A stretch of 64,000 nt of DNA, taken from contig JAKUTY010000006.1 of NCBI GenBank assembly GCA_022447825.1, positions 242 through 64,241 on the forward strand, written 5' to 3'. The position numbers were made by a program, and so were the translations under genes. Within the stretch, counting starts at the first letter, position 1. Every line of letters begins with the position of its first letter. This DNA is from SAR202 cluster bacterium. GTDB lineage: Bacteria > Chloroflexota > Dehalococcoidia > Lucifugimonadales > UBA826. The notes under the pieces are model-generated. The model was not told the origin of the DNA. It did not search any database and saw only the letters and a program-made list of their open reading frames with translations. Positions 3,246-48,805 of this stretch are shown piece after piece.

Positions 3246-3247
3246 AT

Positions 3248-8769: not shown

Positions 8770-8774
8770 AAGAT

Positions 8775-14052: not shown

Positions 14053-14084
14053 AAAAGAGAGCTCTTTTTTTAGAGCTCTCTTTT
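14053..14084. terminator. bidirectional intrinsic terminator between convergent genes
   Basis: Perfect 12-bp inverted repeat AAAAGAGAGCTC / GAGCTCTCTTTT with a T-rich loop, and A/T runs on both sides. The right arm overlaps the last codons of the RND gene. Confidence 0.7.
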
Positions 14085-17000: not shown

Positions 17001-17177
17001 ATCTTCAGATCCAGCATTCGGATAAGAAGCACTAACTGTTAATAGTGGAAATTGAACTCTAGGTAAAACTTCAACAGGTAATTGGCTAAATGTAAAAATC
17101 CCATATCCTAAAACCAACAAAAAAGCCAAAATAGTTACTGAAGCTCTTTTTAATGCTAATTCAGTAAAGTAAGTCAT
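14070..17177 (-). CDS. RND (AcrB/AcrD/AcrF family) efflux transporter permease
   Basis: 1035 aa with two large extracytoplasmic loops and 12 TM segments. Conserved GLALAVGRVVDDSIVVLENV-type motif. Confidence 0.85.
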   Translation of the reverse strand: MTYFTELALKRASVTILAFLLVLGYGIFTFSQLPVEVLPRVQFPLLTVSASYPNAGSEDVVQYVTEPLEKQVSGLEGLNSVQSITFEGSTLLLMFYDYGIDMDVAKKEVESRLVSMDLPGIMETPTVNKLDPGAQAVLEFSFITEGDINSLQDIVSTQIEPSILGIDGVSDVVISGIQKFDVVVNADTESLFQNDISLDKISQIFEEMNFSMSSGFIFDGTGVVSLRTSHSVSTLQDLQNIAIGSKDGNPVLLRDVATISKIPSSSNSISRTNGNPSVGVSVFKDPEANTVDVTQAVLNSANSQADKAGLDTVVIYNAGPDIESQLQTLFSEGIYGFLFAVGGVFIFLLNIKPGLIKGLALSLRPTIVIALTIPVSILGGVLIMGFTDLTLNVMTLGGLALAVGRVVDDSIVVLENVYRHMQMGESKFDAALSATKEVAAAITSSTIATIVVFAPLAFIQGVVGSFFLPFCIAVSSALFASLIVSITFVPVVGAAILRPGDMIPDTEKTGSLSFLQRIYKPALIWSLQHKIITILIALILTMGSVSLPALGLIPVTLFPTGPARILSVDISVPPILTEEQKLSKVLDLEKELKSRLDKGEIENFVTTIGGSGVFSNPDEVGGFASIFVRLTSEAPDDVAEVLTNQFPSESYGTQYEFEELNAAGPPQPGVEVKIVGNNLEDLSRVNDELLVSLRSLDGVDNIESDLTGTRPEMNLVVNSSIASTIGMTPQEVAMAISAPMKGQDLGDLVLNEEEVNLKLKLITASMYGTQDPFQGFNNLSINGPLGSATIGELVTMNRVESPITIARTDTNRSATITGKIINEDSRSVQMAIDAEIDAIELPNGIEIQTGGIFSDIAEGFQDIFLAMAISIILVFLVVSGSLGSLRDSLVILLSLPLASIGAFVGLAITGRSLGLPAMMGLLLLIGLVVTNAIVLIAFVQQLREENFSVREALVEGGLVRLRPILMTAFTTGLALLPLAAFVGNEGGGIIGEDLATVVIGGLASSTFLTLLIVPIAYEFMHSTLPKLFGRNKREL

Positions 17178-24103: not shown

Positions 24104-25240
24104 CTACCACTGGACGAACATGGGCATTACTACATGAGTATATCCAGGCTTACTAATAGATCTTAAAACTCCTGGACTAGATGCCCCTGTCATTTCAAAA
24201 ACTACCTCACCATCACCCAACACATCTAAAACATCTGCTAAATATTTATTATTAAACGCAATCCGGGACTCCTCATCTACCTCGCCTTCGACTCTCGCAT
24301 CAATTTCTCCTTGATTTTCACCAAGTTCTTCAGCTCTCGAGGATATTGATAATCCTGCAGAGTCTCCATTATTAACAATTTGAATTCTGACAATTCCACT
24401 TCCATCTCTTGCAAAAATAGATGCTGTTTTGACAGCATTTGTAAAGTCAGACAGATCCGCCAATACTTGATTTTTATAATTTTCTGGAATTAATGATCGA
24501 TAATTAGGAAATGATCCCGGCATTAATTGGGACACTATTTCAACATTTCCAATGTTAAACAAAGCGTGAGTTCCAGCAGGAGTAACTATAAATTCAACTG
24601 GAGAAGAATCAGTTCCAATTAATCTTCCAATCTCCTGCATAGACCTAGCGGGAATGATGAATTCAAAATTATCATCAATTGAATCAACTAATTTACCTTG
24701 ATATACAGCCAATCTAAATCCATCGGCTGCAGCAAAAGTAAAATCATCATTGTTGACTTCAACCTTAATCCCAGTCAAAACAGGCCTAGAATCTTCAGTA
24801 GCAGCAGCAAAAGCAACATAATCAACTGTTTCTTTTAATATTTGGGGATCAATTTTAATAGTAGAACCTTCATCCACTGTAGGAATTGGGGGGAATTCTG
24901 CAGGATCAGTACCATTGATATTAGCTTCAAACCTCAAACACTTTAAACTGACACTCATCAAATCTGCAGATGATTCTATATCTATACGATCATCAGGAAG
25001 CGTATTCACAAAGTCTGTGAGCAATCTAGCTGGAATAGTAATTTCACCTTCTTCTTCAATCTGTGCACCAATCTTTGTAGTAATGGCGATATCCAAATTA
25101 GTTCCAGTCAAAACTAACATATCATTTTGAGTAGAAATTTTCACATTTTGAAGTACCGGCAAATTACTTCTAGTAGCTACAGCACGACCAACTATTGCTA
25201 ATCCTCTACTTAAGTTCTGTTGAAGGCAGGAAATCTTCAT
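24104..25240 (-). CDS. dnaN: DNA polymerase III beta sliding clamp
   Basis: MKISCLQQNLSRGLAIVGRAVATRSNLPVLQNVKI... with a three-domain length (378 aa) and a C-terminal ...VVMPMFV tail typical of DnaN. Confidence 0.9.
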   Translation of the reverse strand: MKISCLQQNLSRGLAIVGRAVATRSNLPVLQNVKISTQNDMLVLTGTNLDIAITTKIGAQIEEEGEITIPARLLTDFVNTLPDDRIDIESSADLMSVSLKCLRFEANINGTDPAEFPPIPTVDEGSTIKIDPQILKETVDYVAFAAATEDSRPVLTGIKVEVNNDDFTFAAADGFRLAVYQGKLVDSIDDNFEFIIPARSMQEIGRLIGTDSSPVEFIVTPAGTHALFNIGNVEIVSQLMPGSFPNYRSLIPENYKNQVLADLSDFTNAVKTASIFARDGSGIVRIQIVNNGDSAGLSISSRAEELGENQGEIDARVEGEVDEESRIAFNNKYLADVLDVLGDGEVVFEMTGASSPGVLRSISKPGYTHVVMPMFVQW

Positions 25241-25350: not shown

Positions 25351-26133
25351 CTAATAAATATAAGCTAGAAACTCAATCTCTAATGTAATTTCATCTTCTA
25401 ATGAAATAATAAATGGGAATGTAGGTTTTGATAAATTAAATTCATCCCATGTGATCACAGTTGAACCTAATCCAGAAACTTCAGAAGCATTAAATATCAA
25501 ATCAGTTTCCCATTGGGTAGTTTTTGAAATACCAGAAATTGTTAAATCACCAATAATTTCAATAGTCTCTGTACCATCGTCGGGTAACGGCCATGGTAAA
25601 CCAGAAATTTGTTGGATTTGTAATGACACTTCTTGGCCTATGCCAGAGTTTCTTAATACCCACCTGTCTCTTCTATCTTCATCACTTTTAAGAGCAGTAA
25701 CATCAACCAATATATTGGATTGATTTGAAACTTTACCTGTCTTATCTAAATATATTGATCCGGAAACTGAACCTGTTTCTCCCGTAGCAGTGATTGGCAA
25801 AGGCAACCTTACAAGTTCTTCACCAATTTTATACCTAGCCTTAGAGGAAGGGTCTATTGAAATTTCAATATTATCCTGCAATTTACTAGCAATTTCTTCT
25901 ATTTGTGAAGATTGATCTGCAATAACAACATCGATAGTAGGAGTTGGGATTATTTTTTCAACAGTTGGTATTACCGTTTCTAAAGGTGAATTTAGAGGCA
26001 ATATTGTAGAAACTGGTTCACTTTGATCAGCAGTGCTTACTTGTGGATTACTATCAATTTCAGAACATGAAACTAACAATATTCCCAACAAGAAATTGAT
26101 TAACAAGAAATTACTAATATTTTTAGTTTTCAA
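25351..26133 (-). CDS. YceI-like domain lipoprotein
   Basis: Signal peptide with an LLVSC lipobox. C-terminal domain carries VDVTALKSDEDRRDRWVL and GDLTISGISKTTQWE, resembling YceI motifs. Confidence 0.55.
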   Translation of the reverse strand: MKTKNISNFLLINFLLGILLVSCSEIDSNPQVSTADQSEPVSTILPLNSPLETVIPTVEKIIPTPTIDVVIADQSSQIEEIASKLQDNIEISIDPSSKARYKIGEELVRLPLPITATGETGSVSGSIYLDKTGKVSNQSNILVDVTALKSDEDRRDRWVLRNSGIGQEVSLQIQQISGLPWPLPDDGTETIEIIGDLTISGISKTTQWETDLIFNASEVSGLGSTVITWDEFNLSKPTFPFIISLEDEITLEIEFLAYIY

Positions 26134-26144: not shown

Positions 26145-26633
26145 TTACTGAACTGTAATTGTACCAACCATTCCTAATGTCTCATGAGGAACACAAATCA
26201 ATGTATAAACACCGGGTTTATCAAAAGTGAAAGTTAATGTGTCTGTCTCACCACCTTCAACTTCAACTTCAATTCCTAAATCATCCACAACAAAAGAATG
26301 GAATTCAGTTTCAGAAGATATGTTAAATTGAACTGTTTCACCAGTAGAAAATGTTAAATCACCTGGTTCAAATACATAATTTCCACCTGCATCATTCATT
26401 GCTACATCAACAACTTTATCAGCTGTGGCCGTAGAACCAGATGTTGATGAACTAGAAACAGATGTTGATGGTGCAGGAGCCGGAGGAGGAGCCATAGCTG
26501 AAGCAGAAGAAGTGCTTGTTTGAGGAATCGGATCTGGATCTACAGCATCATGGTCATCATTTTGAGGAACACATGCCGCAAAAATCATTAAAATACTCAT
26601 CAAAGAAATTACACTAAACAACTTTGTCATCAA
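26145..26633 (-). CDS. cupredoxin (plastocyanin/amicyanin-like type-1 copper) lipoprotein
   Basis: Signal peptide with an IFAAC lipobox, a Ser/Pro/Ala-rich linker, an upstream His (EFHSF), and C-terminal type-1 Cu ligands in LICVPHETLGM (C-x2-H-x4-M). Confidence 0.8.
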   Translation of the reverse strand: MMTKLFSVISLMSILMIFAACVPQNDDHDAVDPDPIPQTSTSSASAMAPPPAPAPSTSVSSSSTSGSTATADKVVDVAMNDAGGNYVFEPGDLTFSTGETVQFNISSETEFHSFVVDDLGIEVEVEGGETDTLTFTFDKPGVYTLICVPHETLGMVGTITVQ

Positions 26634-30690: not shown

Positions 30691-31485
30691 TTAATGTTTA
30701 GCAAAAATTGAATATTTCTCAATAATCTGTGAAGGCAATATAAATGGTTCTGGAGAGGTTGATAAAAGCCAATTAAGTACAGATAACCCATACCCTTTTG
30801 GATAAGTCCTCGAACCATCAGAATTGTCTGCTATTTCTATTCCCCATCCCGAATTCATAATATCTACAGGTATAATTGAACCGTCACTTATTTTTGAGAT
30901 GTATGAATTCATATTTGATTGAGAAATCCAAGGTTTATACATTAACCACATGTCCAAATCACTTCGTAAAATATCAGTCTTATTAATGATTGAAAACAAG
31001 TCTCTAACAAAAAATTGATCCCCAATTATCTGCCTATCAGTAGCATTAACAATTGAGTCGGAAAAGTACTCATTAACATATGCCCACCATTTCAAACTTC
31101 TGTAAGTGGGAGAAATCGGATCTACCCCAACATCCATACACATTTTTTGAATAAATTCATTCATTTCAAATAGTTGTTTAAATTGAGATTGAGGAATCCC
31201 ATATTTATTTAGCATTTCAAAATCCCCCCAGTCCACTACTAAATGTTCTGATCCCAAAATTTGATCTGAATAATTTCTCAGTCGTCGTTTATATGCAGAT
31301 AAAGTTCTGACAGGTAATGTGATTTTATATCTAGTTTTAAGAAAATCACTTCCAGAAGAATTTTTCCAATTATTTTGTTGCCAAGCTAACATCAATCCAA
31401 TTTGCTGGCAGTTATTGAGAGCAGATTGAAATCCTTTTTTTCCATCTTTCCAATTACTAACACCTTTAGGATTTATAGTTGCCAT
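30691..31485 (-). CDS. hypothetical protein (264 aa, Trp-rich, no recognisable family)
   Basis: Clean ORF with no TM segment or signal peptide. I recognise no motif. Confidence 0.5.
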   Translation of the reverse strand: MATINPKGVSNWKDGKKGFQSALNNCQQIGLMLAWQQNNWKNSSGSDFLKTRYKITLPVRTLSAYKRRLRNYSDQILGSEHLVVDWGDFEMLNKYGIPQSQFKQLFEMNEFIQKMCMDVGVDPISPTYRSLKWWAYVNEYFSDSIVNATDRQIIGDQFFVRDLFSIINKTDILRSDLDMWLMYKPWISQSNMNSYISKISDGSIIPVDIMNSGWGIEIADNSDGSRTYPKGYGLSVLNWLLSTSPEPFILPSQIIEKYSIFAKH

Positions 31486-31567: not shown

Positions 31568-33235
31568 CTAATAGTCTCTAAATGCGTCACCGGGCTTTGA
31601 AGGCATTGCGTAACCTCCACTCAAACCAGCAGGAGACCCATCGGCTCTATGACATGCAGACCCCACCATCAAATCATTTTCAAACATAATTGCATTTAAT
31701 CCACCTGCGACTCGATTGACACTGGTAACTTCATGTCCCAAAAACTCCAATGATTTTTTTATATCTGAATCAAATTCATACTCTAATTCCAATACTCCAC
31801 CATCAGTCCAAATGCGCGGGGCTTCAACTGAAGCCTGCAAGGATAAATCATTGTTAATCAACGCCAATAAAGCCTGAGCTACAGCTCCAAAAATCTTACG
31901 TCCTCCGGGAGTACCTAATACTAAATACGGTTTAGATTTTTTAGTAATTATCGTAGGAGTCATAGATGACAAACATCTTTTAAAAGGCTGAATTGAATTT
32001 GCCATACCTGGATTAGGGTCAAATAATTCCATACAATTATTTAATAACATACCCGTATCTTTTAATGCTACTTTACTTCCAAAAGCATTATTAATAGTTT
32101 GTGTCATAGAAACTATGTTTCCCTCAGAATCAGTAACGTTGAAGTGAGTAGTATTTTCACTATCATTTAGTTTAAATTTGTGTGTAAACTCATATGACTG
32201 TGCTCTATCTAAATTTATTTCTTTTGACCTCTCCAAAGCATATTTTTTAGAAATCAAACCATCTAAAGGTATTTGAACATATTCAGGATCACCAATATAT
32301 TCATATCTATCAGCAAAAACTATCTTAAACACCTCGGAAAGAATATGAATTCTTTTAGAATCTGTAATTGAATATTGCTCAAGATCAAAATTTTCCAATA
32401 TATTCAACATCTGAATTAAGCAAATCCCTCCACTACTTACAGGTCCAACAGAATTAATTTCATAATCTTTATATGTACCTGAGACAGAATCACGATAAAA
32501 AAATCTTTGCTTTTTTAAATCATCAAGCGATATCAATCCATCATTTTTTTTCATTTCATCTTCTACGTGTTGGCCTAATTCCCCGTCATACAAATAAGAT
32601 GACCCATATCTTGAAATTCCTTCTAAAACCAATGCGAAATTAGGGTTTCTTATAATTTGTCCTTTTTGGGGCACAATCTTATTAGGTAAATAAATATCAG
32701 AACTTTCTGAATGTTTTAATAGTTCAGTAGAATTGTCACGAATATTATTAGAAAGATAATCAGAAACTTGAAATCCATTTCTAGCAATTTGAATAGCAGG
32801 AAAAATAACATCTTTTAGTGGAAATTTTCCATATTTTTCTACCAAATGAGTCCATACTTGAAGGTTACCAGGTGTGCCAACAGCGAGATAACCATTTTGA
32901 TTAAGTTTACCTTCAACTTCAAACATACCTGAAGGACTATTATCAACTTCTATAGGGTTATACATTGTTTCTGAAGCTTTTCCCGGTGCAGAAACATACC
33001 CATCAATAGTAAAAAAACCTTTGTCAGGTATATAAAAATTAGTAAAACCTCCACCAAATGGACCAACCATCATTGGTTCTACTACTGACAAAGCAAAAGC
33101 TGTGCCCGCAGCAGCGTCAAAAGCATTCCCACCTGCAGCTAATATAGAAAGACCTACTGAAGACGCTAAAGGATGATTTGAAGTAACCATTCCCATTGAC
33201 GATGTAAGTGACTGTTTCCTAGTAACTTGTTTCAT
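31568..33235 (-). CDS. ggt: gamma-glutamyltranspeptidase family protein
   Basis: ENTTHFNVTDSEGNIVSMTQTINNAFGS (autoprocessing Thr region) and GTPGGRKI motifs. 555 aa. No obvious N-terminal signal peptide. Confidence 0.85.
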   Translation of the reverse strand: MKQVTRKQSLTSSMGMVTSNHPLASSVGLSILAAGGNAFDAAAGTAFALSVVEPMMVGPFGGGFTNFYIPDKGFFTIDGYVSAPGKASETMYNPIEVDNSPSGMFEVEGKLNQNGYLAVGTPGNLQVWTHLVEKYGKFPLKDVIFPAIQIARNGFQVSDYLSNNIRDNSTELLKHSESSDIYLPNKIVPQKGQIIRNPNFALVLEGISRYGSSYLYDGELGQHVEDEMKKNDGLISLDDLKKQRFFYRDSVSGTYKDYEINSVGPVSSGGICLIQMLNILENFDLEQYSITDSKRIHILSEVFKIVFADRYEYIGDPEYVQIPLDGLISKKYALERSKEINLDRAQSYEFTHKFKLNDSENTTHFNVTDSEGNIVSMTQTINNAFGSKVALKDTGMLLNNCMELFDPNPGMANSIQPFKRCLSSMTPTIITKKSKPYLVLGTPGGRKIFGAVAQALLALINNDLSLQASVEAPRIWTDGGVLELEYEFDSDIKKSLEFLGHEVTSVNRVAGGLNAIMFENDLMVGSACHRADGSPAGLSGGYAMPSKPGDAFRDY

Positions 33236-33332
33236 TTAATAACCTCATTAGAAGGCATTAAAACAGATAAAATAAAAAAACAAAATACGGAAATCAATTT
33301 CTCAGTAACAGCTACTTGGTTTCTTGATAAAT

Positions 33333-33371
33333 AATAAAGCGCTACTTAGTCATAATAAGTAGCGCTTTATT
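33333..33371 (-). terminator. hairpin terminator after the coiled-coil lipoprotein operon
   Basis: Perfect 16-bp inverted repeat AATAAAGCGCTACTTA / TAAGTAGCGCTTTATT with a 7-nt loop, 20 nt downstream of the stop at 33391. A T-rich stretch follows on the minus strand. Confidence 0.6.
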
Positions 33372-33390
33372 AAGTTTTTGTGAACTGAAT

Positions 33391-36372
33391 TTAGTTCCCT
33401 GAACCTGAAAGAGATGTTGCAATATCCAATACTGAAGACAAATTACTTACATCGACAGCAGGTGCACTATCAAGTTGATCAACATTCTCAATAGCACCAT
33501 TGATTACACTCAATAGTCCGTATTCAGCCTGTCGATCCAATTCTTGAACTCTAGCTTGAATTTCTGTCAATTGTTGTCTCAATTCTTCGTGTTCAGCGTA
33601 TAAATCTTCTATTTCATCCCACTTCACAGAAATTTGATTTTGAATATCATCTGCCACAGATTGAAGAGGAAGAATATGATCAGCAATTCTGGCTTCCTTT
33701 TCTAGTTCTAATTGTTCGATTTGAGCATTGATTTGATCTTCAAAAGCAGTTTCAGCTTCTTGTCTTTTAGCATCAAGAGCTCTAAATTCATCATTTATCT
33801 CTTGATCTAAAGCTCTAAACCTAGCTTCTTCTTGGTCACTATAATTATCCCAAGCATCGTCCATGGCATCATGAATCGCTTTTTCTTGCTCATGTCTCCA
33901 ATCTTCAAACTCACTCCATAAATTATCGTTGAAAGAATCCCTCTCCTGATCTCTCTGTTCTTTCATTTGATTCAAACCAATACGTTGTTTATCCAACATT
34001 TGGTATTCTCTATCAAGAGCTTTAAATTGTTTATGAATAGGCTTTCTTAACTTCTCAACTTCTCTCCATTCATCATGAATAGTATCTAATTTCTGTTGAA
34101 CTTGTCGTAATTCTTTTTCTATAACCTCTCTACCTTTTTTGTCCTCTTTATGAGAATTTTCTCTTTCCTCATTTAGTTGTTTGATAGATAGTTCTACTGC
34201 TTGAATTTGATTTTGCAACGTTTCTTCTATAGCAACGTTAGCATTACTAGCTCCATAGTATTTTTCATCAATTTTAGCTATTTCATTAATACGAGTATTC
34301 TCAGCATCTAATTTCTGTTGTTCTAATTGTTGCTCTAATGCATTCACATCAACAGAAGATTCATTAGAACCCATTAGTTTGACTTCCTGAACATCACCTT
34401 CCCAGAAATTTTCCCAGGGAGTTGTGCCTAGAGTATAAGAATGAGCGAGCCATTCTCCAGCTACAGGTTGAACAGGTTGCAAAACCCAAAGCCCCTCTTT
34501 ATGTGAATAAATGTAACAAAATTCATATTGTGAACCCTGTTCGCCACAATCTTTTTTAACCCACATTGGGTGTCCGTTAAATTCACCTTGTTCTACATAA
34601 TCCCCTGCATAGTGTGTAGCACCACCCTCAAAAATAGCTCTTATCCATTTTCCATTTGTAGATGAATTTTTCTGATGATTAATTAATTGAATATTATGTT
34701 CCAATTCATTATTCAACTGATTAATTATGTTCTGGTACTCTTCTAACCTTGAGTATGCAGCAGTAATTTCTGGACCAGATACATTTGCAGCACCTCCCGT
34801 AGTAGCAGCCGATTGCTGTAATTCTTGTAATCTACCCTCTAATGGCTGCAGATCTTGAGTAAGCATATTTATTTGATCTACTATAGCGAGGTGTTGTGGA
34901 TTATCAGTAGTAACTTCTGAACCAGCCACAAATTGTGGTACCTGAGTCAATTGAGCTTCTAAATCAGATATTCCAAGAGTAATCTCGGCAATCTGTGGAT
35001 TATCTACCATAATTATACTGACTCCTGATGATCCAAAACCTGTCATTTCTATTTGTTGAGGCATATTAGCTAAGATAGCTTTTTTATTTTCAATCTCTGC
35101 TAGCAAACTAGTATATTGATTGTTCGGCTGGGGATCTGAAGTATATGTAGCTGGAATTGTTGTTAAGCTTTGATTAAGCAAATCTATTTCGGCAGATCGA
35201 TTATCAATTTCGGCAATTAATTGGCTTATTTCCACATTTATATTCGCATTAGCTTGTGTATCAGCCTGTGCATCACTTTCTAATTGCATAACAAAATTGT
35301 GCTCATTTTGTACCATATTTTCATAATAAGCTATTTGTTCTGATGTAGAAGCTTTAAGTGCTTCTATTTGCGCCAAATTTGATGAGGAATCATCAGCTGC
35401 TGAATTTGTTTCATAAGCCGTGTCTCTCTGGGATTCGATTTGTTGAATTGTAGCGTGGTAATCATTCCAAACTGCTTCAACTTCCTGGTCATACATATCC
35501 CAATCTAATTGCTGTGTGCTAGAAGTATTTGTAGTAGATGTTCCAGCAGCAGACGACCATACCGTTTCTAATTGATGATACAAATCATCTAATTCTTTTT
35601 GTTTTTCTTCAAATTTATCATCGTAATAATCCATTGATTTTGCATCAGAATTATTTCTCCAATCTTGCTGATCTAATTGATCATGTAATTCTCTTTCTTT
35701 ATCATGCAAAAGTTCTCTTCTGTCATCAATTTCCATCATCTGATCATCAAACACCATATTTTGTTCATCTAATGAAATTCTAATTTGATCTAATTTAAAA
35801 TAAGCTTCCTTAATAGCATTCTTCTGTAATCTATATTCGCTATTTTTATCCCAATCATCCATAGCAATATGATTTTGTTTTTCTCTTTGATGACGTTCAT
35901 CGTCAAAAGCTTCCCATATCTCGTGATTTTGTTGATCTAATTGATCTCTAATTAGTTCTAATTCTTCATCAAGTGCATCATACCTAGCATCTATAGAGTT
36001 CTCAAAAGCCTCGAATTCTTCTTCAACCATCTGTTCAAATTTTTCTCTGGCTTCATCCTCGTCCAAGAAAAGATTTTGATGTTCAGCTTCCATATCTCTC
36101 TCGAATTCATTCCCTATAATCTCAGCTTGCTGATTAATAATTTCCAATTCTTCTTCTAATGATTCGATTTCTTGTTCAATTGGTTTAATTCTTGAATCTA
36201 CCTCAGCAATTTGCTGAACCAATGGATCTACTTCATTGGTCTGTATCTCTAAAATTTGAGCTCGCATATCCAAAACAGATTGGGCAGCCTCTGCATCAAC
36301 AATTCCACAAGCAACCATAGAGAAACTAATAGATAAAATTCCAATAATCCTCAAGCCTATCTTATTTAACAT
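33391..36372 (-). CDS. giant acidic coiled-coil lipoprotein, paralog A (unknown family)
   Basis: Signal peptide plus lipobox (SMVAC), then about 950 aa of D/E/Q-rich heptad-like sequence. An aromatic-rich globular insert of about 95 aa is present. The ATG at 36372 follows a GGAG SD. Confidence 0.75.
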   Translation of the reverse strand: MLNKIGLRIIGILSISFSMVACGIVDAEAAQSVLDMRAQILEIQTNEVDPLVQQIAEVDSRIKPIEQEIESLEEELEIINQQAEIIGNEFERDMEAEHQNLFLDEDEAREKFEQMVEEEFEAFENSIDARYDALDEELELIRDQLDQQNHEIWEAFDDERHQREKQNHIAMDDWDKNSEYRLQKNAIKEAYFKLDQIRISLDEQNMVFDDQMMEIDDRRELLHDKERELHDQLDQQDWRNNSDAKSMDYYDDKFEEKQKELDDLYHQLETVWSSAAGTSTTNTSSTQQLDWDMYDQEVEAVWNDYHATIQQIESQRDTAYETNSAADDSSSNLAQIEALKASTSEQIAYYENMVQNEHNFVMQLESDAQADTQANANINVEISQLIAEIDNRSAEIDLLNQSLTTIPATYTSDPQPNNQYTSLLAEIENKKAILANMPQQIEMTGFGSSGVSIIMVDNPQIAEITLGISDLEAQLTQVPQFVAGSEVTTDNPQHLAIVDQINMLTQDLQPLEGRLQELQQSAATTGGAANVSGPEITAAYSRLEEYQNIINQLNNELEHNIQLINHQKNSSTNGKWIRAIFEGGATHYAGDYVEQGEFNGHPMWVKKDCGEQGSQYEFCYIYSHKEGLWVLQPVQPVAGEWLAHSYTLGTTPWENFWEGDVQEVKLMGSNESSVDVNALEQQLEQQKLDAENTRINEIAKIDEKYYGASNANVAIEETLQNQIQAVELSIKQLNEERENSHKEDKKGREVIEKELRQVQQKLDTIHDEWREVEKLRKPIHKQFKALDREYQMLDKQRIGLNQMKEQRDQERDSFNDNLWSEFEDWRHEQEKAIHDAMDDAWDNYSDQEEARFRALDQEINDEFRALDAKRQEAETAFEDQINAQIEQLELEKEARIADHILPLQSVADDIQNQISVKWDEIEDLYAEHEELRQQLTEIQARVQELDRQAEYGLLSVINGAIENVDQLDSAPAVDVSNLSSVLDIATSLSGSGN

Positions 36373-36399
36373 CAACTGCTCCTATCCTTTTTCTATTTT

Positions 36400-38865
36400 C
36401 TAATCGTTATTAGTAGGTAAATCCAATAATGAATCAAATCCTATAGCTCGACCAGTGCCTCCAGCATCTAATTGTTCTACATTGGAAATAGCATCATTTA
36501 TTACGCTAAGAAGTCCAAATTCAGCCTGTCTATCTAACTGTTGAACTCTTGCTTGTAGAGATTCAAGTTGGGATTTGTAATTTTCTTGAGTCTCATATAA
36601 AGAATCTAATTCTGCAAATTTTGCATCAATTTGAGACTCTAGATCTTTTGCTTGAGCTTCTAATGGAGCAAGAACTTCTTCAAAAATTCTGTCTTGTTCA
36701 TTTTCTATTTCAATTCTTGCAGTTTTTTCCAGGTCCTTAAATGCTTTTTCACTATCTTTTCTCTTTTGATCCAGAGCATCTCTCTCATCTTCCATATTTC
36801 GTTCTAAATTTTTCCTGAGAGCTTTGGCTTCATCCTCAAAGTTATCCCAATTCTGCTTTGTCAAATCTTCAATTTCATCCTGTCGAATTTTGATCCATTT
36901 ATCAAATTCACCCCATGTTTGATCACGAATTGCATCATCATCAGCACCTTCAGATTGCTGCCTCTGCATTTCAAGCATCATACTTTCTTTGTCTAATGCC
37001 ATTTGCTGTTTTCTAATAGGTCGTTCTTGTCGCTCTAATTCTTTTTGTTGATCCCTGAGGGGGTCAATTTGAGCTTCTAAATTTCGAATCCTAGTTTGCA
37101 TTTCTTTAGCACGTTGTTCACGGTTCTTATGAAATTTATGCATTTTATCTTCCATTGCTTCAATTTCATCTTCCAGTGCTTTAATTTGTGATTTCAATCC
37201 TTCAGCTGCAGGAGGCTCATTTGAATTATTTGTTCCATAATATGAATTATCTATAGCAGCAATAGCATTTTCTCTCTTTGATAGTGCATTAGATTCAAGT
37301 ATAGCTAACTCATTTTCTAACGCTGTCAAATCAACAGTACCTTGATTCGAAAAATCAGTAGACTGTGCAGCAGCTTCATCTTTTTTACTTTGAAGTTCTG
37401 TATTTAGTTCATTTATCACTGCATTCAATTCGTCTCGCTTAGAAATAAGGGCAGTTAATTCTGGATTAGAATCTGATGAATTTTCATTTAGTTGATTCAA
37501 CTCATTATTCTTTGTTGAAATTTGAGAATCTTTAAAATTAATATCCTGTTCTATACCGACAATTGTATTCTCTTTATCAGCAATTTCTGCGATTAATGAA
37601 GCATACTCAGGATTATCAATCAAATCATTTCTTCCGTCTCCGTCCGAATCTACAGTACCTTCAATTTGTTGGGGAGTAGAAACTAATGCATCTTGTGCAG
37701 CAGTTTTAGCATTTCTCAATTCAGTTAAGTTAATACGTGCATTTTCTATTTCAATATTCAAAGCTTCAATATCAGAAATTAATGCACTTTTTGCACCAGC
37801 AGTAGAGTTACCTGATGATGACAAAGCATCTATCTCAGCCTGTATTTGAATAACTTGATTATTGTAGTCTGAAATTTTTGATACATATTCTTGTTCTATT
37901 ACCGAAATATCTTTCACAGATGCGGCAGCATCAGCATCATTTTGAGCTGAATATGCTTGAGATCTACGATTCTGAATAGAATCGATTTCGGCATGATAAG
38001 CATTCCATGCATTATCTATTTCAGAATCATAATTACTCCAATCTTTAGCAGGAGCGAAACTTGTACTTGATTGATTAAAAGAATCCCAAGCTAACTGTAA
38101 TTGATCGTGCAAACTATCTAAAAGTTTCCTTCTGTTCCTAATGTCTTCATCCCTCCCCTCAAAACTCCTATCGTCCCAAATATCACTATTTTGCCTATGG
38201 AAATCCTCTATTTGATCAAACACAGGCTGTAGTTGCTCGTCGAGCATCATTCGCTGTTCTTGAATTTCCATGCTTTGGAAATTTAATTCCATCCTGACAG
38301 CTTCAAGCTTCTTTCTTGCTATCCTGTTAGGATCCTGATCTCTTAATTCATTTTCTAAATTTCTAGTCTCATCTTCCTTATCTCTCCTCTCATCATCCCA
38401 AGCATCCCATATCATTTCATTTTGATCGTCAATTAATTCTCGTCTGTCATCAATCTCATCATCCAGACGATCCCATTGATCTTTATGGTCATCATCCATT
38501 TGTCTCCATTGATTGTCTAATTCCTCATAAAATGCTTCTCTAGCTTCGTCCTGGTTCATAAACGCCAAATCGAATTTTTCACGCATTTCATCTTCGAAAC
38601 CTCTCCCCACCTCTTCACCTTGCCTATACAAATCTTCACGTTGATCTTCTAGGGCTTCAATTTCAGCTTCGATAGGATCAATTTGGTCTTGCAAAGCTTT
38701 CATCTGTTCCATCAGAGGATCAACCTCTGTTGTTTGAATCTCTAAAATTTGTGCTCGAGTGTCAACAACACTCTGAGCAGCCTCAGAATCAACAATTCCA
38801 CAGGCCATAAAAGCACCAGAAATCATTAGCGAACCAACAATCTTCAAAATTGCGTTCTTCAACAT
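36400..38865 (-). CDS. giant acidic coiled-coil lipoprotein, paralog B (unknown family)
   Basis: Signal peptide plus lipobox (AFMAC). The N-terminal 40 aa and C-terminal 30 aa are nearly identical in pattern to paralog A. The ATG at 38865 follows an AGGAGA SD; the track TTG start at 38889 is less likely. Confidence 0.75.
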   Translation of the reverse strand: MLKNAILKIVGSLMISGAFMACGIVDSEAAQSVVDTRAQILEIQTTEVDPLMEQMKALQDQIDPIEAEIEALEDQREDLYRQGEEVGRGFEDEMREKFDLAFMNQDEAREAFYEELDNQWRQMDDDHKDQWDRLDDEIDDRRELIDDQNEMIWDAWDDERRDKEDETRNLENELRDQDPNRIARKKLEAVRMELNFQSMEIQEQRMMLDEQLQPVFDQIEDFHRQNSDIWDDRSFEGRDEDIRNRRKLLDSLHDQLQLAWDSFNQSSTSFAPAKDWSNYDSEIDNAWNAYHAEIDSIQNRRSQAYSAQNDADAAASVKDISVIEQEYVSKISDYNNQVIQIQAEIDALSSSGNSTAGAKSALISDIEALNIEIENARINLTELRNAKTAAQDALVSTPQQIEGTVDSDGDGRNDLIDNPEYASLIAEIADKENTIVGIEQDINFKDSQISTKNNELNQLNENSSDSNPELTALISKRDELNAVINELNTELQSKKDEAAAQSTDFSNQGTVDLTALENELAILESNALSKRENAIAAIDNSYYGTNNSNEPPAAEGLKSQIKALEDEIEAMEDKMHKFHKNREQRAKEMQTRIRNLEAQIDPLRDQQKELERQERPIRKQQMALDKESMMLEMQRQQSEGADDDAIRDQTWGEFDKWIKIRQDEIEDLTKQNWDNFEDEAKALRKNLERNMEDERDALDQKRKDSEKAFKDLEKTARIEIENEQDRIFEEVLAPLEAQAKDLESQIDAKFAELDSLYETQENYKSQLESLQARVQQLDRQAEFGLLSVINDAISNVEQLDAGGTGRAIGFDSLLDLPTNND

Positions 38866-39091
38866 CGAAAATCTCCTGTAAGAAATCAATATATTAAATA
38901 ATCATTTATCGTGACAATTCTACTCTCAAATGCGTCATGATTCTAGATACTACACAATTATTCCAGTAATAAGTTTTTTTGTGGTGAGTATGAATACGCA
39001 AAACCAACACGTAAAACCACTTGTATTAAGATTTTGTTGATAATAAACAACCTTTATTTTATAGTTTTTTAATCATTAACTGGATAACAAT

Positions 39092-44600: not shown

Positions 44601-45497
44601 TCAAATAATTCCTAATTTTTTACACATTTCCAACATTTCTATCGCGGTTTTTTCATGAGCAATATCAACCATTCCTCCCTGAAAATTCACTGCAGCTCCA
44701 CCCTCTGATCTAACTTGATCCATAGCAGAAACTAAATATTGCCAGTCTTCAATTTCTTGTCTCGATGGAGTAAAAACATCGTTAACTATAGGAACATGAG
44801 ATGGATGAATCACCGTCATGCCTGTATAGCCAATATTACGAGATTGTATTGCAAAATTTCTTAATCCATCATGATCATTTATATCTTGCCACAAACCTGT
44901 TACTGGATATTGAATACCAGCAGCTTTAGAATCTAATAAAACCTTAGATCTCAAATACAAAGTTTCTTGTCCGTCTGGAGTCCATCTGTACCCTACGGCT
45001 CTAGCAATATCACCACCTCTACCTCCAGCAGCACCCATATGAGCAATCCTTTTAGATGAAACTGCTATTTCATATGCAAATCTCAGAGCAAAAGCAGTCT
45101 CTAATATAGGATCAATAAATATAGAGCCCTGAGGTAACCCTTTCTTTTCTTCTTCAAGACTCAACATTTCATCTAATTGTTTTACATCATCTAAACTTTT
45201 CACCATAGGTAAAGTGATTCCATATAATCCTTTCTGAACTACATGTGTAATATCATCTTGGGTTAGGCCACTACCAATTTCATTCACTCGTACAAATACA
45301 GATACTCCAGTAAGAGAAATTTCTTCAATTAAATTGGAAGCATTTTTTCTAGCTTTACTTTTTTCATCTAAAGGAACGGAATCTTCAATATCTAAAATCA
45401 AAGCATCAGAACCATATTTAGGTGCTTTTCTAATCCAGTCTTCTTTATTAGCAGGAACATACATTACTGTTCTAAGCGGTTTTGGAAGATTTTCCAT
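44601..45497 (-). CDS. HpcH/CitE-like acyl-CoA lyase (citrate lyase beta / malyl- or citramalyl-CoA lyase family)
   Basis: RTVMYVPANKEDWIRKAPKYGSDALILDIEDSVP is the CitE-type N-terminus. 298 aa. Lies immediately downstream of a CaiB-type CoA-transferase. Confidence 0.75.
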   Translation of the reverse strand: MENLPKPLRTVMYVPANKEDWIRKAPKYGSDALILDIEDSVPLDEKSKARKNASNLIEEISLTGVSVFVRVNEIGSGLTQDDITHVVQKGLYGITLPMVKSLDDVKQLDEMLSLEEEKKGLPQGSIFIDPILETAFALRFAYEIAVSSKRIAHMGAAGGRGGDIARAVGYRWTPDGQETLYLRSKVLLDSKAAGIQYPVTGLWQDINDHDGLRNFAIQSRNIGYTGMTVIHPSHVPIVNDVFTPSRQEIEDWQYLVSAMDQVRSEGGAAVNFQGGMVDIAHEKTAIEMLEMCKKLGII

Positions 45498-45499: not shown

Positions 45500-46735
45500 T
45501 TAAATTACCCCGTCATTTTTTAATTGATTTATAGTTTCTATATCTAAATTGAGCAATTTCCTAAATATTTCCTCATTATGCATTCCTAAAGTTGGAGCTC
45601 CATCTGAATCCGGAAGGTCTACACCTGAAAATTTTACTGGAAAACCTGTAGAGATCCCCGGAACAGAATTTTTAAAAGCAGCATTTTTCATATTTCTTAA
45701 CGTTCCCCTATCCCAATAATGCTGATCTTTAATAACTTCTTCTACTGATCTTACTGGTCCACAGGGAATACCACCATTTTCTAATCGCTCTAAAGCTTCA
45801 GACCTAGTGAATTTAGATAAAATTTGCTGAATTGAAGCTACAGCCTTATTGATATTTTTGTTTCTAGCAAAAAAAGTAGAAAAATCAGGATTTTCTACTA
45901 ATTCAGGAGCATTTAGGGCTTTAGATAAATTTGCCCATTGATCATCACTAGCTGCAGTAATAGTTATTTCTCCATCTTTAGTTGAAAAGTTACCAGAAGG
46001 ACTTCCCCTAAGAATATTTCCCATTCTTACTGGCTCTCCATTCATAAGATCTTCTTCCAAAGTGTCCATCATGATTAGAGAGGTCAAAGTATCCATCATT
46101 GAAACATCTAAATATTGACCTTCTCCTGTTTTTTCCTTCTGCCTTAAGGCAGCTAATATCGAATAACAAGCAAATAACGGGGTTACTAAATCTCCAATTA
46201 AAAATCCAACTTTTGTAGGAGGGCCATCAGTAAATCCGTTAATGTCCATCAATCCACTCATTCCTTGAATCTGTGGATCTTGAGCTCTTTTTTTAGAATA
46301 AGGCCCAGTTTGACCATATCCAGAAATGGACGCGTAAATTATTTCTGGATTTTCTTTTACAACATCTTCATAACCCAATCCTAATCTCTTCATAGCGCCA
46401 GGAGCTAAATTTTCTACCAAAACATCGCTTTCTTTTGCTAACTCCAAAAACATTTGCTTACCTTTTGGATTTTTCAAATTTAATGTAATGCTTTTTAAAC
46501 CTTCAGACCTTTTAATAAATCTAGTAGACAAATGATTGTCAGATTCTTGATTTTCAAAATAACCATCCGGAGTTACAAAAGGACCATTTTGTCTCGTCGG
46601 ATCTCCAGATCCGGGTACCTCTACTTTAATAGATTCTGCTCCTAATCTTGCTAAATTAAGAAGAGTGTAAGGCCCAGCCAAAAAAACTGTGACACCCAAA
46701 ACTCTTACATCTCCTAGCAAAGATTGATTATTCAA
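45500..46735 (-). CDS. CaiB/BaiF family-III CoA-transferase
   Basis: LGDVRVLGVTVFLAGPYTLLNLARLGAESIKVE... and LENLAPGAMKRLGLGYEDV motifs. 411 aa. Confidence 0.85.
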   Translation of the reverse strand: MNNQSLLGDVRVLGVTVFLAGPYTLLNLARLGAESIKVEVPGSGDPTRQNGPFVTPDGYFENQESDNHLSTRFIKRSEGLKSITLNLKNPKGKQMFLELAKESDVLVENLAPGAMKRLGLGYEDVVKENPEIIYASISGYGQTGPYSKKRAQDPQIQGMSGLMDINGFTDGPPTKVGFLIGDLVTPLFACYSILAALRQKEKTGEGQYLDVSMMDTLTSLIMMDTLEEDLMNGEPVRMGNILRGSPSGNFSTKDGEITITAASDDQWANLSKALNAPELVENPDFSTFFARNKNINKAVASIQQILSKFTRSEALERLENGGIPCGPVRSVEEVIKDQHYWDRGTLRNMKNAAFKNSVPGISTGFPVKFSGVDLPDSDGAPTLGMHNEEIFRKLLNLDIETINQLKNDGVI

Positions 46736-48675: not shown

Positions 48676-48805
48676 ACTTAAATTTTCCTAAAATTTCAGC
48701 GATTATACAACAGTAGAATTATCTCAAAAATTTACTATTGCAATTATATTTGCGTTTCCTTGTATAATCCCAATATTTCTAGAACATAAATCAAGGATGC
48801 TCATT

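What the first reader, a model, noticed from the sequence alone, without database searches (positions are those of the whole stretch)
33391..38865. Co-transcribed tandem pair of giant, highly acidic coiled-coil lipoproteins with conserved termini and no recognisable family
Seen in sequence. Two adjacent minus-strand genes are separated by 24 nt, each has its own SD, and a 16-bp-stem terminator follows only the second (33333..33371). They encode proteins of about 821 and 993 aa.

Both begin with a signal peptide ending in a lipobox Cys (FMAC|G and MVAC|G). A near-identical module follows: GIVD(S/A)EAAQSV(V/L)D(T/M)RAQILEIQT(T/N)EVDPL. Both end with another shared module: (Q)ARVQ(Q/E)LDRQAE(F/Y)GLLSVIN(D/G)AI(S/E)NV(E/D)QLD.

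Between the termini are hundreds of residues of D/E/Q/N/R-rich heptad-like sequence with recurring Trp-acidic motifs, for example EIWEAFDDERHQRE, MIWDAWDDERRDKED and DDAWDNYSDQEE. Internally the N-terminal and C-terminal thirds resemble each other, suggesting an ancient internal duplication. The centre is Ser/Thr/Asn/Ala-rich and divergent between the paralogs.

I recognise no Pfam-type motif. They are not SMC, not M-protein-like LPXTG proteins, and not an S-layer SLH protein.

Inference: these are surface- or membrane-tethered fibrous proteins, possibly forming a heterodimer through the conserved ends. Such a strongly polyanionic, Trp-studded surface could be a structural envelope layer or a cation/metal or polymer-binding matrix. 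At about 5.5 kb in an otherwise extremely compact genome, this is a large investment, which argues for an important function. A signal-peptide-less GGT gene lies immediately downstream (31568..33235), but the terminator separates it.
Basis: partly seen in the sequence, partly recalled or inferred. Interest (0 to 1): 0.7.

Follow-up and report, generated by a model that had tools for sequence, protein, structure and literature searches.

The report
SAR202 giant acidic hairpin-rod lipoproteins
Two adjacent genes in this marine SAR202 (Chloroflexota) genome encode very large, very acidic, lipid-anchored proteins that most likely fold into about 55-60 nm helical hairpin rods standing on the surface of a bacterium with no cell wall; the family has no known relatives and its function is untested.

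Summary
Two minus-strand genes, A (36400..38865, 821 aa) and B (33391..36372, 993 aa), are full-length paralogs. Each has a signal peptide with a lipobox Cys22, a pI of 4.3, a net charge of -99 (A) or -130 (B), and almost all-helical AlphaFold models. No Pfam, NCBIfam, PADLOC, PHROG or PDB family is matched above coiled-coil noise.

The host is SAR202 (Dehalococcoidia). Cultured SAR202 is a single-membrane bacterium with no peptidoglycan genes and an S-layer-like outer layer.

The family is small and confined to SAR202/Dehalococcoidia, usually as a single copy. The A-B tandem recurs in two close genomes and in one distant contig. Both genes are under purifying selection (dN/dS 0.13-0.17).

New here:
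- **Hairpin fold.** The protein is best read as one symmetric antiparallel hairpin. Its N and C halves match in length across clades (r about 0.92), indels are mirrored, and model helix breaks are mirrored.
- **Foot.** The conserved N- and C-terminal modules meet at the membrane.
- **Tip.** The tip is a constant 22-23-residue loop flanked by prolines. In A it carries a DxDxDGxxDxxD calcium-type motif.

Function, inferred only: an envelope spacer or fibril coat.

The parts
36400..38865 (-). Gene A: 821-aa acidic helical lipoprotein (mature protein about 92 kDa, pI 4.28, net charge -99)
   Evidence: ORF. Composition and lipobox. AlphaFold2 model: pLDDT 78, almost all helix. Orthologues at 89% and 81% identity in L005 and L006; dN/dS 0.14-0.16.
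33391..36372 (-). Gene B: 993-aa paralog (mature protein about 112 kDa, pI 4.26, net charge -130)
   Evidence: ORF. Paralogy to A. Composition. AlphaFold2 model: pLDDT 69.8. dN/dS 0.13-0.17.
38800..38865 (-). A signal peptide plus lipobox (MLKNAILKIVGSLMISGAFMA|C22)
   Evidence: The lipobox rule is met. Cys22 and Gly23 are invariant in 13 family members.
36307..36372 (-). B signal peptide plus lipobox (MLNKIGLRIIGILSISFSMVA|C22)
38710..38799 (-). A N-terminal conserved module (residues 23-52, GIVDSEAAQSVVDTRAQILEIQTTEVDPL); proposed membrane-proximal foot
   Evidence: Invariant residues G23 V25 D26 E28 A30 L41 I43 Q44 T45 D49 P50 L51. Residues 22-52 (lipobox Cys22 plus this module) are 26/31 identical to B, but only 14 of those 26 share a codon, so the similarity reflects selection rather than gene conversion.
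36217..36306 (-). B N-terminal conserved module (residues 23-52)
37603..37677 (-). A tip loop (residues 397-421, TPQQIEGTVDSDGDGRNDLIDNPEY) between invariant P398 and P419; contains the motif DxDxDGxxDxxD
   Evidence: Loop length is constant at 22-23 residues in nearly all clades. The motif is expected by chance in about 0.002 of shuffled sequences. AlphaFold2 places a short beta-hairpin at 400-417 between helices of 42 and 44 residues.
34990..35064 (-). B tip loop (residues 437-461, MPQQIEMTGFGSSGVSIIMVDNPQI); same length as in A but the Asp-rich motif is lost in this genome
   Evidence: B orthologues in L005 and L006 keep DLDGDGRNDMVE and DTDGDGRNDMID. Beta-hairpin at 440-457 in the model.
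34348..34665 (-). B-specific insert domain of about 105 aa (residues about 570-675): beta-rich, two Cys, five Trp; sits at a joint on the C-terminal strand of the rod
   Evidence: Absent from A and from all other clades. dN/dS is 0.013 and 0.049, the most constrained part of B. No Pfam hit, no significant PDB hit, and no homologue found by the word-index search. Model pLDDT is below 50 with five short strands.
36466..36558 (-). A C-terminal conserved module (residues 770-800, LQARVQQLDRQAEFGLLSVINDAISNVEQLD); proposed to pack against the N module at the membrane
   Evidence: Invariant residues V774 L777 D778 A781 E782 G784 L786 S787 V788 I789 A792. It contains the most hydrophobic stretch outside the signal peptide, but this is not of transmembrane grade: Kyte-Doolittle score 0.64. 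dN/dS 0.03-0.05.
33469..33561 (-). B C-terminal conserved module (residues 938-968)
38873..38877 (-). AGGAG ribosome-binding site of A
   Evidence: Sequence shown.
36379..36383 (-). AGGAG ribosome-binding site of B, in the 24-27-nt A-B spacer
   Evidence: Sequence shown.
33332..33372 (-). 17-bp hairpin after B; probable terminator separating the pair from the GGT gene
   Evidence: scored on the + strand; the stem is palindromic. The minus-strand tail is T-rich.

Best explanation
A and B are extracytoplasmic lipoproteins of a SAR202 bacterium, which has one membrane and no peptidoglycan.

**Processing.** After Sec export and lipidation of Cys22, each chain folds back on itself into one long two-stranded antiparallel alpha-helical hairpin. 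The geometry resembles an SMC arm without heads or hinge. Each strand has about 370 (A) or 410 (B) helical residues, giving a segmented rod of roughly 55-60 nm.

**Foot.** The conserved N-terminal module (GIVD..AAQ..ILEIQT..DPL) and C-terminal module (LD..AEFGLLSVI.GAI) lie side by side next to the lipid anchor and form the foot.

**Tip.** The distal tip is a 22-23-residue, Asp-rich loop flanked by prolines. In A it has a calcium-type DxDxDGxxDxxD motif.

**Side domain.** B also displays a strongly conserved beta-rich domain of about 105 aa at a joint about two-thirds of the way up the rod.

**Proposed role.** The rods form a dense polyanionic fibril layer. This layer would set and fill the space between the membrane and the S-layer-like coat seen on cultured SAR202, acting as a spacer or scaffold that partly replaces a wall. 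The tip and the B domain would make the outward contacts.

**Status of each step**
- Shown by computation: gene structure, lipobox, composition, helicity, family distribution, purifying selection.
- Strongly inferred: the hairpin.
- Inferred: surface location.
- Hypothesis: the spacer or scaffold role, calcium binding, and A/B co-assembly.
For: **Export and anchoring**
- The lipobox rule is met in both proteins, and Cys22-Gly23 are invariant family-wide.
- There is no further transmembrane-grade segment, no LPXTG motif and no Walker A motif.
- Two other typical extracytoplasmic proteins in the window, a cupredoxin and a YceI protein, carry lipoboxes, so the lineage uses this anchor.

**Helical rod**
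- The AlphaFold2 models are almost all helix, with single helices of up to 250 residues.
- Amphipathic periodicity of 3.5-3.67 residues has z = 5-7.

**Hairpin**
- N-arm and C-arm lengths across 11 clades correlate at r = 0.915, slope 0.96, permutation p = 9e-4. The length of the centre is uncorrelated.
- Whole N half versus C half, measured around the conserved loop: r = 0.92. Examples are 247/240, 330/322, 376/359 and 474/456. B exceeds the trend by about the size of its insert.
- Indels are mirrored. In the P0004 clade, N-arm insertions of 11, 22, 7 and 12 residues lie at +117, +128, +158 and +213 from Cys22. C-arm insertions of 7, 22, 6 and 4 residues lie at -86, -105, -142 and -231 from D778.
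- Model helix breaks mirror each other. In A: 176-178 with 636-642, 267-275 with 544-551, and 351-354 with 463-467. In B: 404-417 with 478-491, 369-374 with 525-533, and 275-290 with the insert.
- The best Foldseek matches for both models are antiparallel-arm proteins: MukB, condensin, Smc5/6, JetC, Rad50 and the surface stalk protein PrgA.

**Function is real and important to the cell**
- dN/dS is 0.13-0.17. The foot modules and the B insert are the most constrained parts.
- The terminal modules of A and B are kept similar by selection, not by gene conversion.
- The family was found in 24 SAR202/Dehalococcoidia loci.

**Envelope context.** Cultured SAR202 has a single-membrane envelope, no peptidoglycan synthesis genes, and a layer outside the membrane reminiscent of an S-layer (PMC10444878).
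Against: - No experimental evidence of expression, lipidation or location was found in the literature.
- pTM is only 0.29-0.30, and Foldseek TM-scores are only 0.1-0.15.
- A monomer prediction can only pack helices intramolecularly, so the models cannot exclude inter-chain pairing.
- PAE and model coordinates could not be inspected.
- One N-arm break (A 232-237) and one C-arm break (A 505-512) have no mirror partner.
- Length covariation was not corrected for phylogeny beyond taking one sequence per clade.
- No S-layer gene or any other conserved partner lies next to the family gene.
- The family was not detected in the cultured SAR202 genus, but the genome scan needed exact motifs and could miss it.
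- The calcium-type motif is present in only some clades and is lost in this genome's B. Pfam did not score it.
- SignalP and LipoP were not available.
Confidence: 0.5

Rival explanations
1. **Parallel, fully extended coiled-coil fibre** (like M protein or Lpp). Two or three chains, A/A, B/B or A/B, align in parallel. The lipid anchor sits at one end and the conserved C module sits at the far end, about 120-145 nm away, as a distal binding or bundling knob.
For: - Heptad-like periodicity.
- Very long uninterrupted helices.
- Both paralogs share near-identical end modules, which could register a heterodimer.
- The tandem pair is old.
Against: - A parallel fibre gives no reason for the N and C halves to stay equal in length with slope about 1, including in short forms.
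- It also gives no reason for indels and helix breaks to be mirrored about a constant-length central loop.
- Most SAR202 clades have one copy only, so no heterodimer is required.
- A rod of 120-145 nm would be about a third of the diameter of a 0.4-0.5 um cell (cell size from PMC10444878).
Confidence: 0.15
2. **Adhesin or ligand-capture fibril.** The rod serves mainly to hold the tip loop and the B insert domain away from the cell. These would bind particles, polymers, cations or other cells. Any structural role in the envelope would be secondary.
For: - The tip loop has constant length and is flanked by prolines. It carries a calcium-type DxDxDGxxDxxD motif in several clades.
- The B insert is the most constrained part of B, with dN/dS 0.013-0.049.
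- The architecture resembles PrgA, a stalk carrying a distal domain.
- The region of B around the tip evolves fastest, with dN/dS 0.25-0.31.
Against: - The insert has no detectable relatives or fold assignment.
- The Asp-rich motif is degenerate in many clades and lost in this B.
- Most family members have no globular domain at all.
- No ligand is suggested by the neighbouring genes.
Confidence: 0.2
3. **Protective barrier or surface-exclusion coat.** A brush of long anionic rods would keep phages, grazers' lectins or conjative partners away from the naked membrane. The variable mid-region would evolve under an arms race.
For: - Foldseek similarity to the surface-exclusion protein PrgA.
- The central regions are the most divergent between paralogs and clades, and show expansions, for example a 166-residue repetitive tip region in L022.
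- Weak matches to the arms of LmuB and JetC.
Against: - The PADLOC matches are 13-25 bits and fall on coiled-coil arms only.
- dN/dS is well below 1 everywhere.
- The gene sits in a conserved chromosomal context, not in a defence island.
Confidence: 0.1
4. **Cytoplasmic SMC-like or Rad50-like protein.** One source names a relative (P0013) 'chromosome segregation ATPase', and the apparent signal peptide would be fortuitous.
For: - Sub-threshold hits to the coiled-coil parts of SMC, Rad50, SbcC, LmuB and JetC models.
- The JGI name for P0013.
- Foldseek top hits are MukB and SMC proteins.
Against: - There is no Walker A motif.
- No ATPase head or hinge domain was detected. The SMC score is 42 bits against a cut-off of 567, and only the arm regions match.
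- The n-region, h-region and lipobox Cys are invariant across the family.
- The net charge of -100 to -130 is unsuited to DNA binding.
Confidence: 0.02

Closest known systems
PrgA, the surface-exclusion protein of Enterococcus faecalis plasmid pCF10 (PDB 6z9l)
   Same: It is a surface-anchored protein of a single-membrane bacterium, built as a long antiparallel helical hairpin stalk that holds a distal element far from the cell. It is recovered by Foldseek for both models.
   Different: - There is no sequence homology.
- From general knowledge, PrgA is anchored to peptidoglycan by LPXTG and carries a globular protease-like (CAP) domain at its tip.
- Here the anchor is an N-terminal lipid, the host has no wall, the tip is a 22-residue loop, and only B has a globular domain, which sits on the side of the rod.
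- TM-scores are only about 0.11-0.13.
Coiled-coil arms of SMC, MukB, Rad50 and JetC
   Same: - Two long helices from the N and C halves of one chain pair antiparallel.
- Arm lengths co-vary.
- There are mirrored discontinuities (joints or elbows).
- These are the top Foldseek hits, with probability up to 1.0.
   Different: - There are no ATPase heads, no hinge and no Walker A motif.
- The protein is exported and lipidated.
- It is extremely acidic.
- The two arms are themselves an internal duplication.
- HMM scores are far below the family cut-offs.
Envelope spacer rods: Thermotoga Omp-alpha, Staphylothermus tetrabrachion, Sulfolobus SlaB, and E. coli Lpp as a periplasm ruler
   Same: This is an analogy from general knowledge. 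These are membrane-anchored coiled-coil rods tens of nanometres long that hold an outer layer (toga, S-layer or outer membrane) at a fixed distance. Their hosts include organisms without peptidoglycan.
   Different: - Those proteins are parallel oligomeric coiled coils, anchored by a transmembrane helix or SLH domain, or by a lipid in the case of Lpp (78 aa).
- None is homologous: the SlaB hit has E 0.52 and the Lpp hit E 0.53, both noise.
- Contact with an S-layer is not shown here.
Helix-rich surface lipoproteins of wall-less Mollicutes (for example NCBIfam TIGR04523, Mplasa_alph_rch)
   Same: These are large helical proteins lipid-anchored on the naked membrane of a wall-less bacterium.
   Different: The score is 29 bits against a cut-off of 270. 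The phylum, the composition and the terminal modules all differ.

Membership tests
Bacterial lipoprotein (PROSITE PS51257-type signal) | K/R in the n-region, an uncharged h-region, and a [LIVMFWSTAG](2)-[LIVMFYSTAGCQ]-[AGS]-C lipobox with Cys at position 15-35 | tested here: met
   A has SLMISGAFMAC and B has ILSISFSMVAC, each with Cys22. The Cys is invariant in the family.
Bacterial lipoprotein (PROSITE PS51257-type signal) | Actual lipidation and cleavage by Lgt and LspA | not testable with these tools
   No lgt or lspA gene was seen among the window ORFs scanned. The rest of the genome was not available. Two other lipobox proteins in the window suggest the pathway is in use.
SMC/MukB/Rad50 superfamily | N- and C-terminal ABC-type ATPase head halves (Walker A, Walker B, signature motif) | tested here: not met
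   No G....GK[ST] motif. TIGR02168 scores 42 bits against a cut-off of 567, and only arm regions align. There is no Pfam SMC_N hit.
SMC/MukB/Rad50 superfamily | A central hinge or zinc-hook dimerisation domain | tested here: not met
   No SMC_hinge hit. The centre of the protein is a 22-23-residue loop.
SMC/MukB/Rad50 superfamily | An intramolecular antiparallel coiled-coil arm | tested here: inconclusive
   Matched arm lengths, mirrored indels and mirrored helix breaks support it. No contact map or multimer model could be obtained.
LPXTG-anchored fibrillar proteins (M protein, PrgA) | A C-terminal LPXTG sorting signal followed by a hydrophobic segment and a basic tail | tested here: not met
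   There is no LP.[TSA]G motif and no C-terminal hydrophobic segment. The host lineage lacks peptidoglycan synthesis genes (PMC10444878).
SLH-domain S-layer or spacer proteins (for example Omp-alpha) | An SLH domain | tested here: not met
   No SLH hit in Pfam at E <= 1.
Braun lipoprotein (Lpp) | Membership of the short trimeric Lpp family (NF011925) | tested here: not met
   10.6 bits against a cut-off of 108.
ClyA-family alpha-pore-forming toxins (AhlB, SmhB, NheA, XaxB, MakA) | A helical bundle of about 300-370 aa with a hydrophobic beta-tongue head; structural match at fold level | tested here: not met
   Foldseek TM-scores are 0.05-0.10 (query-normalised) and at most 0.26 (target-normalised), with E above 0.01. 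The protein is 2-3 times longer. The tip of A is Asp-rich rather than hydrophobic.
DxDxDG calcium-binding loop (EF-hand or thrombospondin type 3-like) | A D-x-[DN]-x-[DN]-G-x-x-[DN]-x-x-[DE] loop | tested here: met
   A has DSDGDGRNDLID at residues 406-417. The motif is also at the tip loop of the L005 A orthologue, the L005 and L006 B orthologues, and L013. Chance is about 0.002 per sequence. It is not present in the window's B.
DxDxDG calcium-binding loop (EF-hand or thrombospondin type 3-like) | A Pfam-level domain match (TSP_3 or EF-hand), or demonstrated Ca2+ binding | tested here: not met
   No such Pfam hit at E <= 1. Binding cannot be tested here.
Beta/gamma-crystallin fold (for the B insert) | Significant sequence or structure match | tested here: not met
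   The best PDB hits are gamma-crystallin S at E 1.1-3.7, which is not significant. Pfam gives nothing at E <= 10. Model pLDDT is below 50.

The most novel reading that the evidence does not exclude
These rods are the main load-bearing or spacing element of the SAR202 envelope. In this reading they are an exported, lipid-anchored, head-less protein with SMC-arm geometry. Cross-bridged by seawater Ca2+/Mg2+, the rods would form a polyanionic exoskeletal brush of about 55 nm. That brush would carry the S-layer-like coat and stand in for a cell wall in one of the most abundant bacterial clades of the dark ocean. In the surface-ocean lineage, A and B would co-assemble so that the B side domain docks the outer layer.
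Probability: 0.12. Interest if true: 0.8.

Novelty: new variant of a known kind. Interest (0 to 1): 0.55.

Why it matters
SAR202 is among the most abundant bacterial groups in the deep ocean. It has only recently been cultured, and its envelope is essentially uncharacterised: one membrane, no peptidoglycan, and an unexplained outer layer.

This work identifies a clade-restricted, strongly conserved and very large surface lipoprotein with a predictable rod geometry. That gives a concrete candidate for what sits between the membrane and the outer layer. It is directly testable by cryo-electron tomography, proteomics and recombinant biophysics.

The protein would also be an example of an antiparallel long-arm coiled coil used outside the cell with a lipid anchor. 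Its length is tunable through paired indels, which would make it a natural molecular ruler.

If it turns out to be an ordinary surface fibril of unknown ligand, it still corrects the database label 'chromosome segregation ATPase' and defines a new family signature.

Tried and rejected
1. **Library scans.** Pfam, NCBIfam, PADLOC, PHROGs and PDB sequence searches of A, B and the family profile gave only sub-threshold matches to coiled-coil regions: SMC, Rad50, SbcC, LmuB, JetC, apolipoprotein and designed helical bundles. These were rejected as evidence of homology.
2. **B insert.** Pfam gave nothing at E <= 10. PDB gave only gamma-crystallin at E about 1. AlphaFold2 confidence was below 50. The fold remains unassigned.
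3. **Gene neighbourhood.** The divergent genes for a 4HBT thioesterase, a cyclophilin and a pentapeptide-repeat protein are conserved in only one clade. The GGT gene is adjacent only in the three closest genomes. No partner recurs across clades. An operon-based functional link, including to GGT, was rejected.
4. **Gene conversion between A and B.** This was considered as the reason for the near-identical ends. It was rejected because about 40-45% of the identical residues use different codons.
5. **Recent lineage-specific duplication.** Rejected. A and B are as distant from each other as from other clades, and a distant contig (L029) keeps the tandem.
6. **ClyA-type toxin reading of the Foldseek list.** Rejected on TM-scores and size.
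7. **Literature.** Searches for SAR202 or Dehalococcoidia combined with lipoprotein, coiled-coil, metaproteome or S-layer found nothing on this family.
8. **Model coordinates.** PAE and coordinates of the models could not be accessed, so the hairpin could not be read directly from the models.

Full report
**Observation**

The region holds two co-oriented minus-strand ORFs.
- A is 36400..38865 from the ATG (821 aa). The open frame runs back to a TTG at 38889.
- B is 33391..36372 from the ATG (993 aa). A TTG lies one codon upstream.
- Each ATG is preceded by AGGAG at a proper spacing, and the spacer between the genes is 24-27 nt.
- The only strong hairpin is a 17-bp stem at 33332..33372 after B. 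None lies between A and B. Co-transcription is therefore plausible but not shown.

A and B are paralogs over their whole length. Identity is 31% over the first 560 residues (E 1e-56) and 38% over the last 320 (E 2e-53). The N and C modules are nearly identical.

Both proteins pass a PROSITE-type lipobox rule with Cys22. Mature pI is 4.3. D+E is 24% (A) and 21% (B). Net charge is -99 (A) and -130 (B). There is no second hydrophobic segment of transmembrane grade, no LPXTG motif, no Walker A motif and no twin-arginine motif.

The similarity between the N and C thirds is real. hhalign gives probability 96.9, E 1.6e-10 and score 76, against scores of 35-39 for reversed controls.

**No known family**

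Pfam, NCBIfam, PADLOC, PHROGs and PDB sequence searches return only sub-threshold hits to the coiled-coil parts of SMC, Rad50, SbcC, LmuB, JetC and apolipoprotein. The best is SMC at 42 bits against a cut-off of 567.

**Host and distribution**

- A scan of one genome per GTDB species found 24 loci. All are from SAR202, Dehalococcoidia or Chloroflexota MAGs and SAGs. The one exception is a 3.3-kb contig binned as Gemmatimonadales, which is probably a mis-bin.
- The closest loci are a Tara MAG (L005, 89% identity) and the single-cell genome SAR202 AG-426-M11 (L006, 81%).
- An exhaustive profile search of 1.84 billion representative proteins found only 96 hits at E <= 1e-3. About a dozen are full length. 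The set includes short forms of 555-580 aa that keep the lipobox, the N module and the C module.
- The window's other genes fit SAR202: three family-III CoA-transferases, a luciferase-like monooxygenase, GMC oxidoreductases, HpcH aldolases and an enolase-superfamily protein.
- Cultured SAR202 has a single-membrane envelope, no peptidoglycan synthesis genes, and a layer outside the membrane reminiscent of an S-layer (PMC10444878).

**Copy number and age of the pair**

- Most loci carry a single copy. The A-B tandem, together with the downstream GGT gene, occurs in the window, L005 and L006.
- In a neighbour-joining tree, A and B are as far from each other as from any other clade.
- The sister of B, P0019 (900 aa), sits on a JGI contig 25 nt downstream of the C-terminus of an A-type gene. 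The tandem is therefore old.
- The near-identical end modules of A and B are maintained by selection, not by gene conversion. Only 14 of 26 and 16 of 25 identical residues share a codon.
- Against their orthologues, both genes have dN/dS of 0.13-0.17. The end modules score 0.03-0.14.

**Neighbourhood**

The divergent upstream genes (4HBT thioesterase, cyclophilin and a pentapeptide-repeat protein) are conserved in one clade only. No gene recurs next to the family gene across clades. GGT (Pfam E 3e-135) is adjacent only in the three closest genomes. I see no functional link to it.

**Architecture**

The AlphaFold2 models are almost entirely helical. B has pLDDT 69.8 and A has pLDDT 78; pTM is about 0.3 for both. 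Hydrophobic periodicity of 3.5-3.67 residues is significant.

Four independent lines indicate that each chain is one symmetric antiparallel hairpin.
1. **Matched arms.** Between conserved landmarks, N-arm and C-arm lengths across 11 clades correlate at r = 0.915, with slope 0.96, intercept about 0 and permutation p = 9e-4. The length of the centre is uncorrelated.
2. **Matched halves.** Measured around a central loop bounded by the invariant prolines P398 and P419 (A numbering), the whole N and C halves are equal in every clade, including the short forms. Examples are 247/240, 330/322, 376/359 and 474/456 (r = 0.92). B is the exception: its C half is longer by roughly the size of its extra domain.
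3. **Mirrored indels.** In the P0004 clade, insertions of 11, 22, 7 and 12 residues lie at +117, +128, +158 and +213 from Cys22. They are matched by insertions of 7, 22, 6 and 4 residues at -86, -105, -142 and -231 from D778. Other clades show similar pairs. The outer pairs do not fit the alternative in which indels fall at equivalent positions of the internal repeat.
4. **Mirrored helix breaks.** In A, 176-178 mirrors 636-642, 267-275 mirrors 544-551, and 351-354 mirrors 463-467. In B, 404-417 mirrors 478-491 exactly, 369-374 mirrors 525-533, and the 275-290 loop faces the insert.

Foldseek's best matches for both models are proteins with antiparallel arms: MukB, condensin, Smc5/6, JetC, Rad50 and the enterococcal surface stalk PrgA. 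TM-scores are low (0.1-0.15), as expected for long flexible rods.

With about 370 (A) and 410 (B) helical residues per strand, and about 0.15 nm per residue (general knowledge), the rods would be about 55-60 nm long. Relatives would range from about 37 to 70 nm.

In this geometry the conserved C module (LD..AEFGLLSVI.GAI) lies beside the lipidated Cys and the N module. That explains why both ends are the most conserved parts in single-copy relatives too.

**Tip and side domain**

- The tip loop has a constant length of 22-23 residues. In A it reads TPQQIEGTVDSDGDGRNDLIDNPEY.
- The DxDxDGxxDxxD pattern is a calcium-loop type motif, as in EF-hands and thrombospondin type 3 repeats (general knowledge). 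It recurs at the same place in the L005 A orthologue, the L005 and L006 B orthologues, and L013. Chance is about 0.002 per sequence.
- The motif is degenerate in other clades and replaced in the window's own B by MTGFGSSGVSIIMVD.
- Flanking the tip are 2-5 helices capped by [ND]Px(Y/W/F) motifs.
- B carries a beta-rich insert of about 105 aa (residues about 570-675, with 2 Cys and 5 Trp) at a joint of the C strand. It is absent from A and from every other clade.
- The insert is the most constrained segment of B, with dN/dS 0.013-0.049. It has no detectable relatives or fold assignment.

**Interpretation**

The best-supported reading is a lipid-anchored, surface-exposed, polyanionic hairpin rod. 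I propose that it acts as a spacer, scaffold or fibril coat in the wall-less SAR202 envelope. The tip, and in B the side domain, would make the outward contacts.

My estimates for each step are:
- localisation: about 0.8;
- hairpin: about 0.7;
- specific envelope-spacer role: about 0.3, a hypothesis resting on analogy with Omp-alpha, tetrabrachion, SlaB and Lpp, and on the published description of the envelope.

The rivals are a parallel extended fibre, an adhesin or ligand-capture fibril, and a protective exclusion coat. A cytoplasmic SMC-like protein is excluded by the lack of ATPase motifs and by the invariant lipoprotein signal.

**Novelty**

Surface coiled-coil fibrils are a known kind of protein. 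This family has no homology to any of them. It combines an N-terminal lipid anchor with geometry like a head-less SMC arm, and it is confined to a major, poorly understood marine clade. I rate it a new variant of a known kind, with interest 0.55.

Noticed in passing
window 34348..34665 (B residues about 570-675): An orphan beta-rich domain of about 105 aa is inserted in the rod of B only. It is 94-99% identical in orthologues whose overall identity is 81-88%, with dN/dS of 0.013-0.049. It has no Pfam hit, no significant PDB hit and no homologue from the word-index search.
   Followed up: partly
window 37603..37677 (A) and 34990..35064 (B); L005, L006, L013: The tip loop carries a calcium-type DxDxDGxxDxxD motif in A, in the L005 A orthologue, in the B orthologues of L005 and L006, and in L013. 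The window's own B has replaced it with a hydrophobic, Gly/Ser-rich loop of the same length.
   Followed up: partly
L022 about 278..3532: One SAR202 relative has expanded the tip region to 166 residues with repetitive AQTAVADAQQAVTDAQQAVTD-type units, plus what look like duplicated tip loops.
   Followed up: no
L029 3..173 and 199..2901: A short JGI contig keeps the A-type/B-type tandem with a 25-nt spacer in a lineage only distantly related to the window. This shows that the pair is ancient.
   Followed up: yes
window 14070..17177 (-): A full-length AcrB/AcrD/AcrF-type RND transporter (Pfam 610 bits) sits in a single-membrane organism. Its immediate neighbours are an NHL-repeat protein and CinA, not an adaptor or outer-membrane channel gene.
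   Followed up: no
window 25351..26133 and 26145..26633 (-): Two further lipobox proteins, a YceI-like protein and a cupredoxin, lie next to dnaN (24104..25240). The same cupredoxin-YceI-dnaN block lies about 6 kb downstream of the single-copy family gene in L001-L004. Long-range synteny is therefore kept between this low-GC surface lineage and its relatives.
   Followed up: partly
window 30691..31485 (-): A 264-aa protein with no Pfam or PHROG match recurs downstream of the family gene in L006, L007 and L026 at 53-88% identity.
   Followed up: partly
window 31568..33235 (-): The gamma-glutamyltranspeptidase homologue (Pfam E 3e-135) has no obvious signal peptide. It is adjacent to the pair only in the window, L005 and L006.
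   Followed up: partly
P0013 (JGI) and L023: JGI names one family member 'chromosome segregation ATPase', which the sequence does not support. One family fragment sits on a 3.3-kb contig binned as Gemmatimonadales UBA1120, probably a binning error.
   Followed up: no
window 45500..46735, 48797..50050, 50050..51312; 2436..3245, 8760..9524, 44601..45497: There are three family-III CoA-transferase paralogs and three HpcH/HpaI aldolase paralogs within 64 kb, alongside a luciferase-like monooxygenase and two GMC oxidoreductases. This is the catabolic paralog expansion described for SAR202.
   Followed up: no
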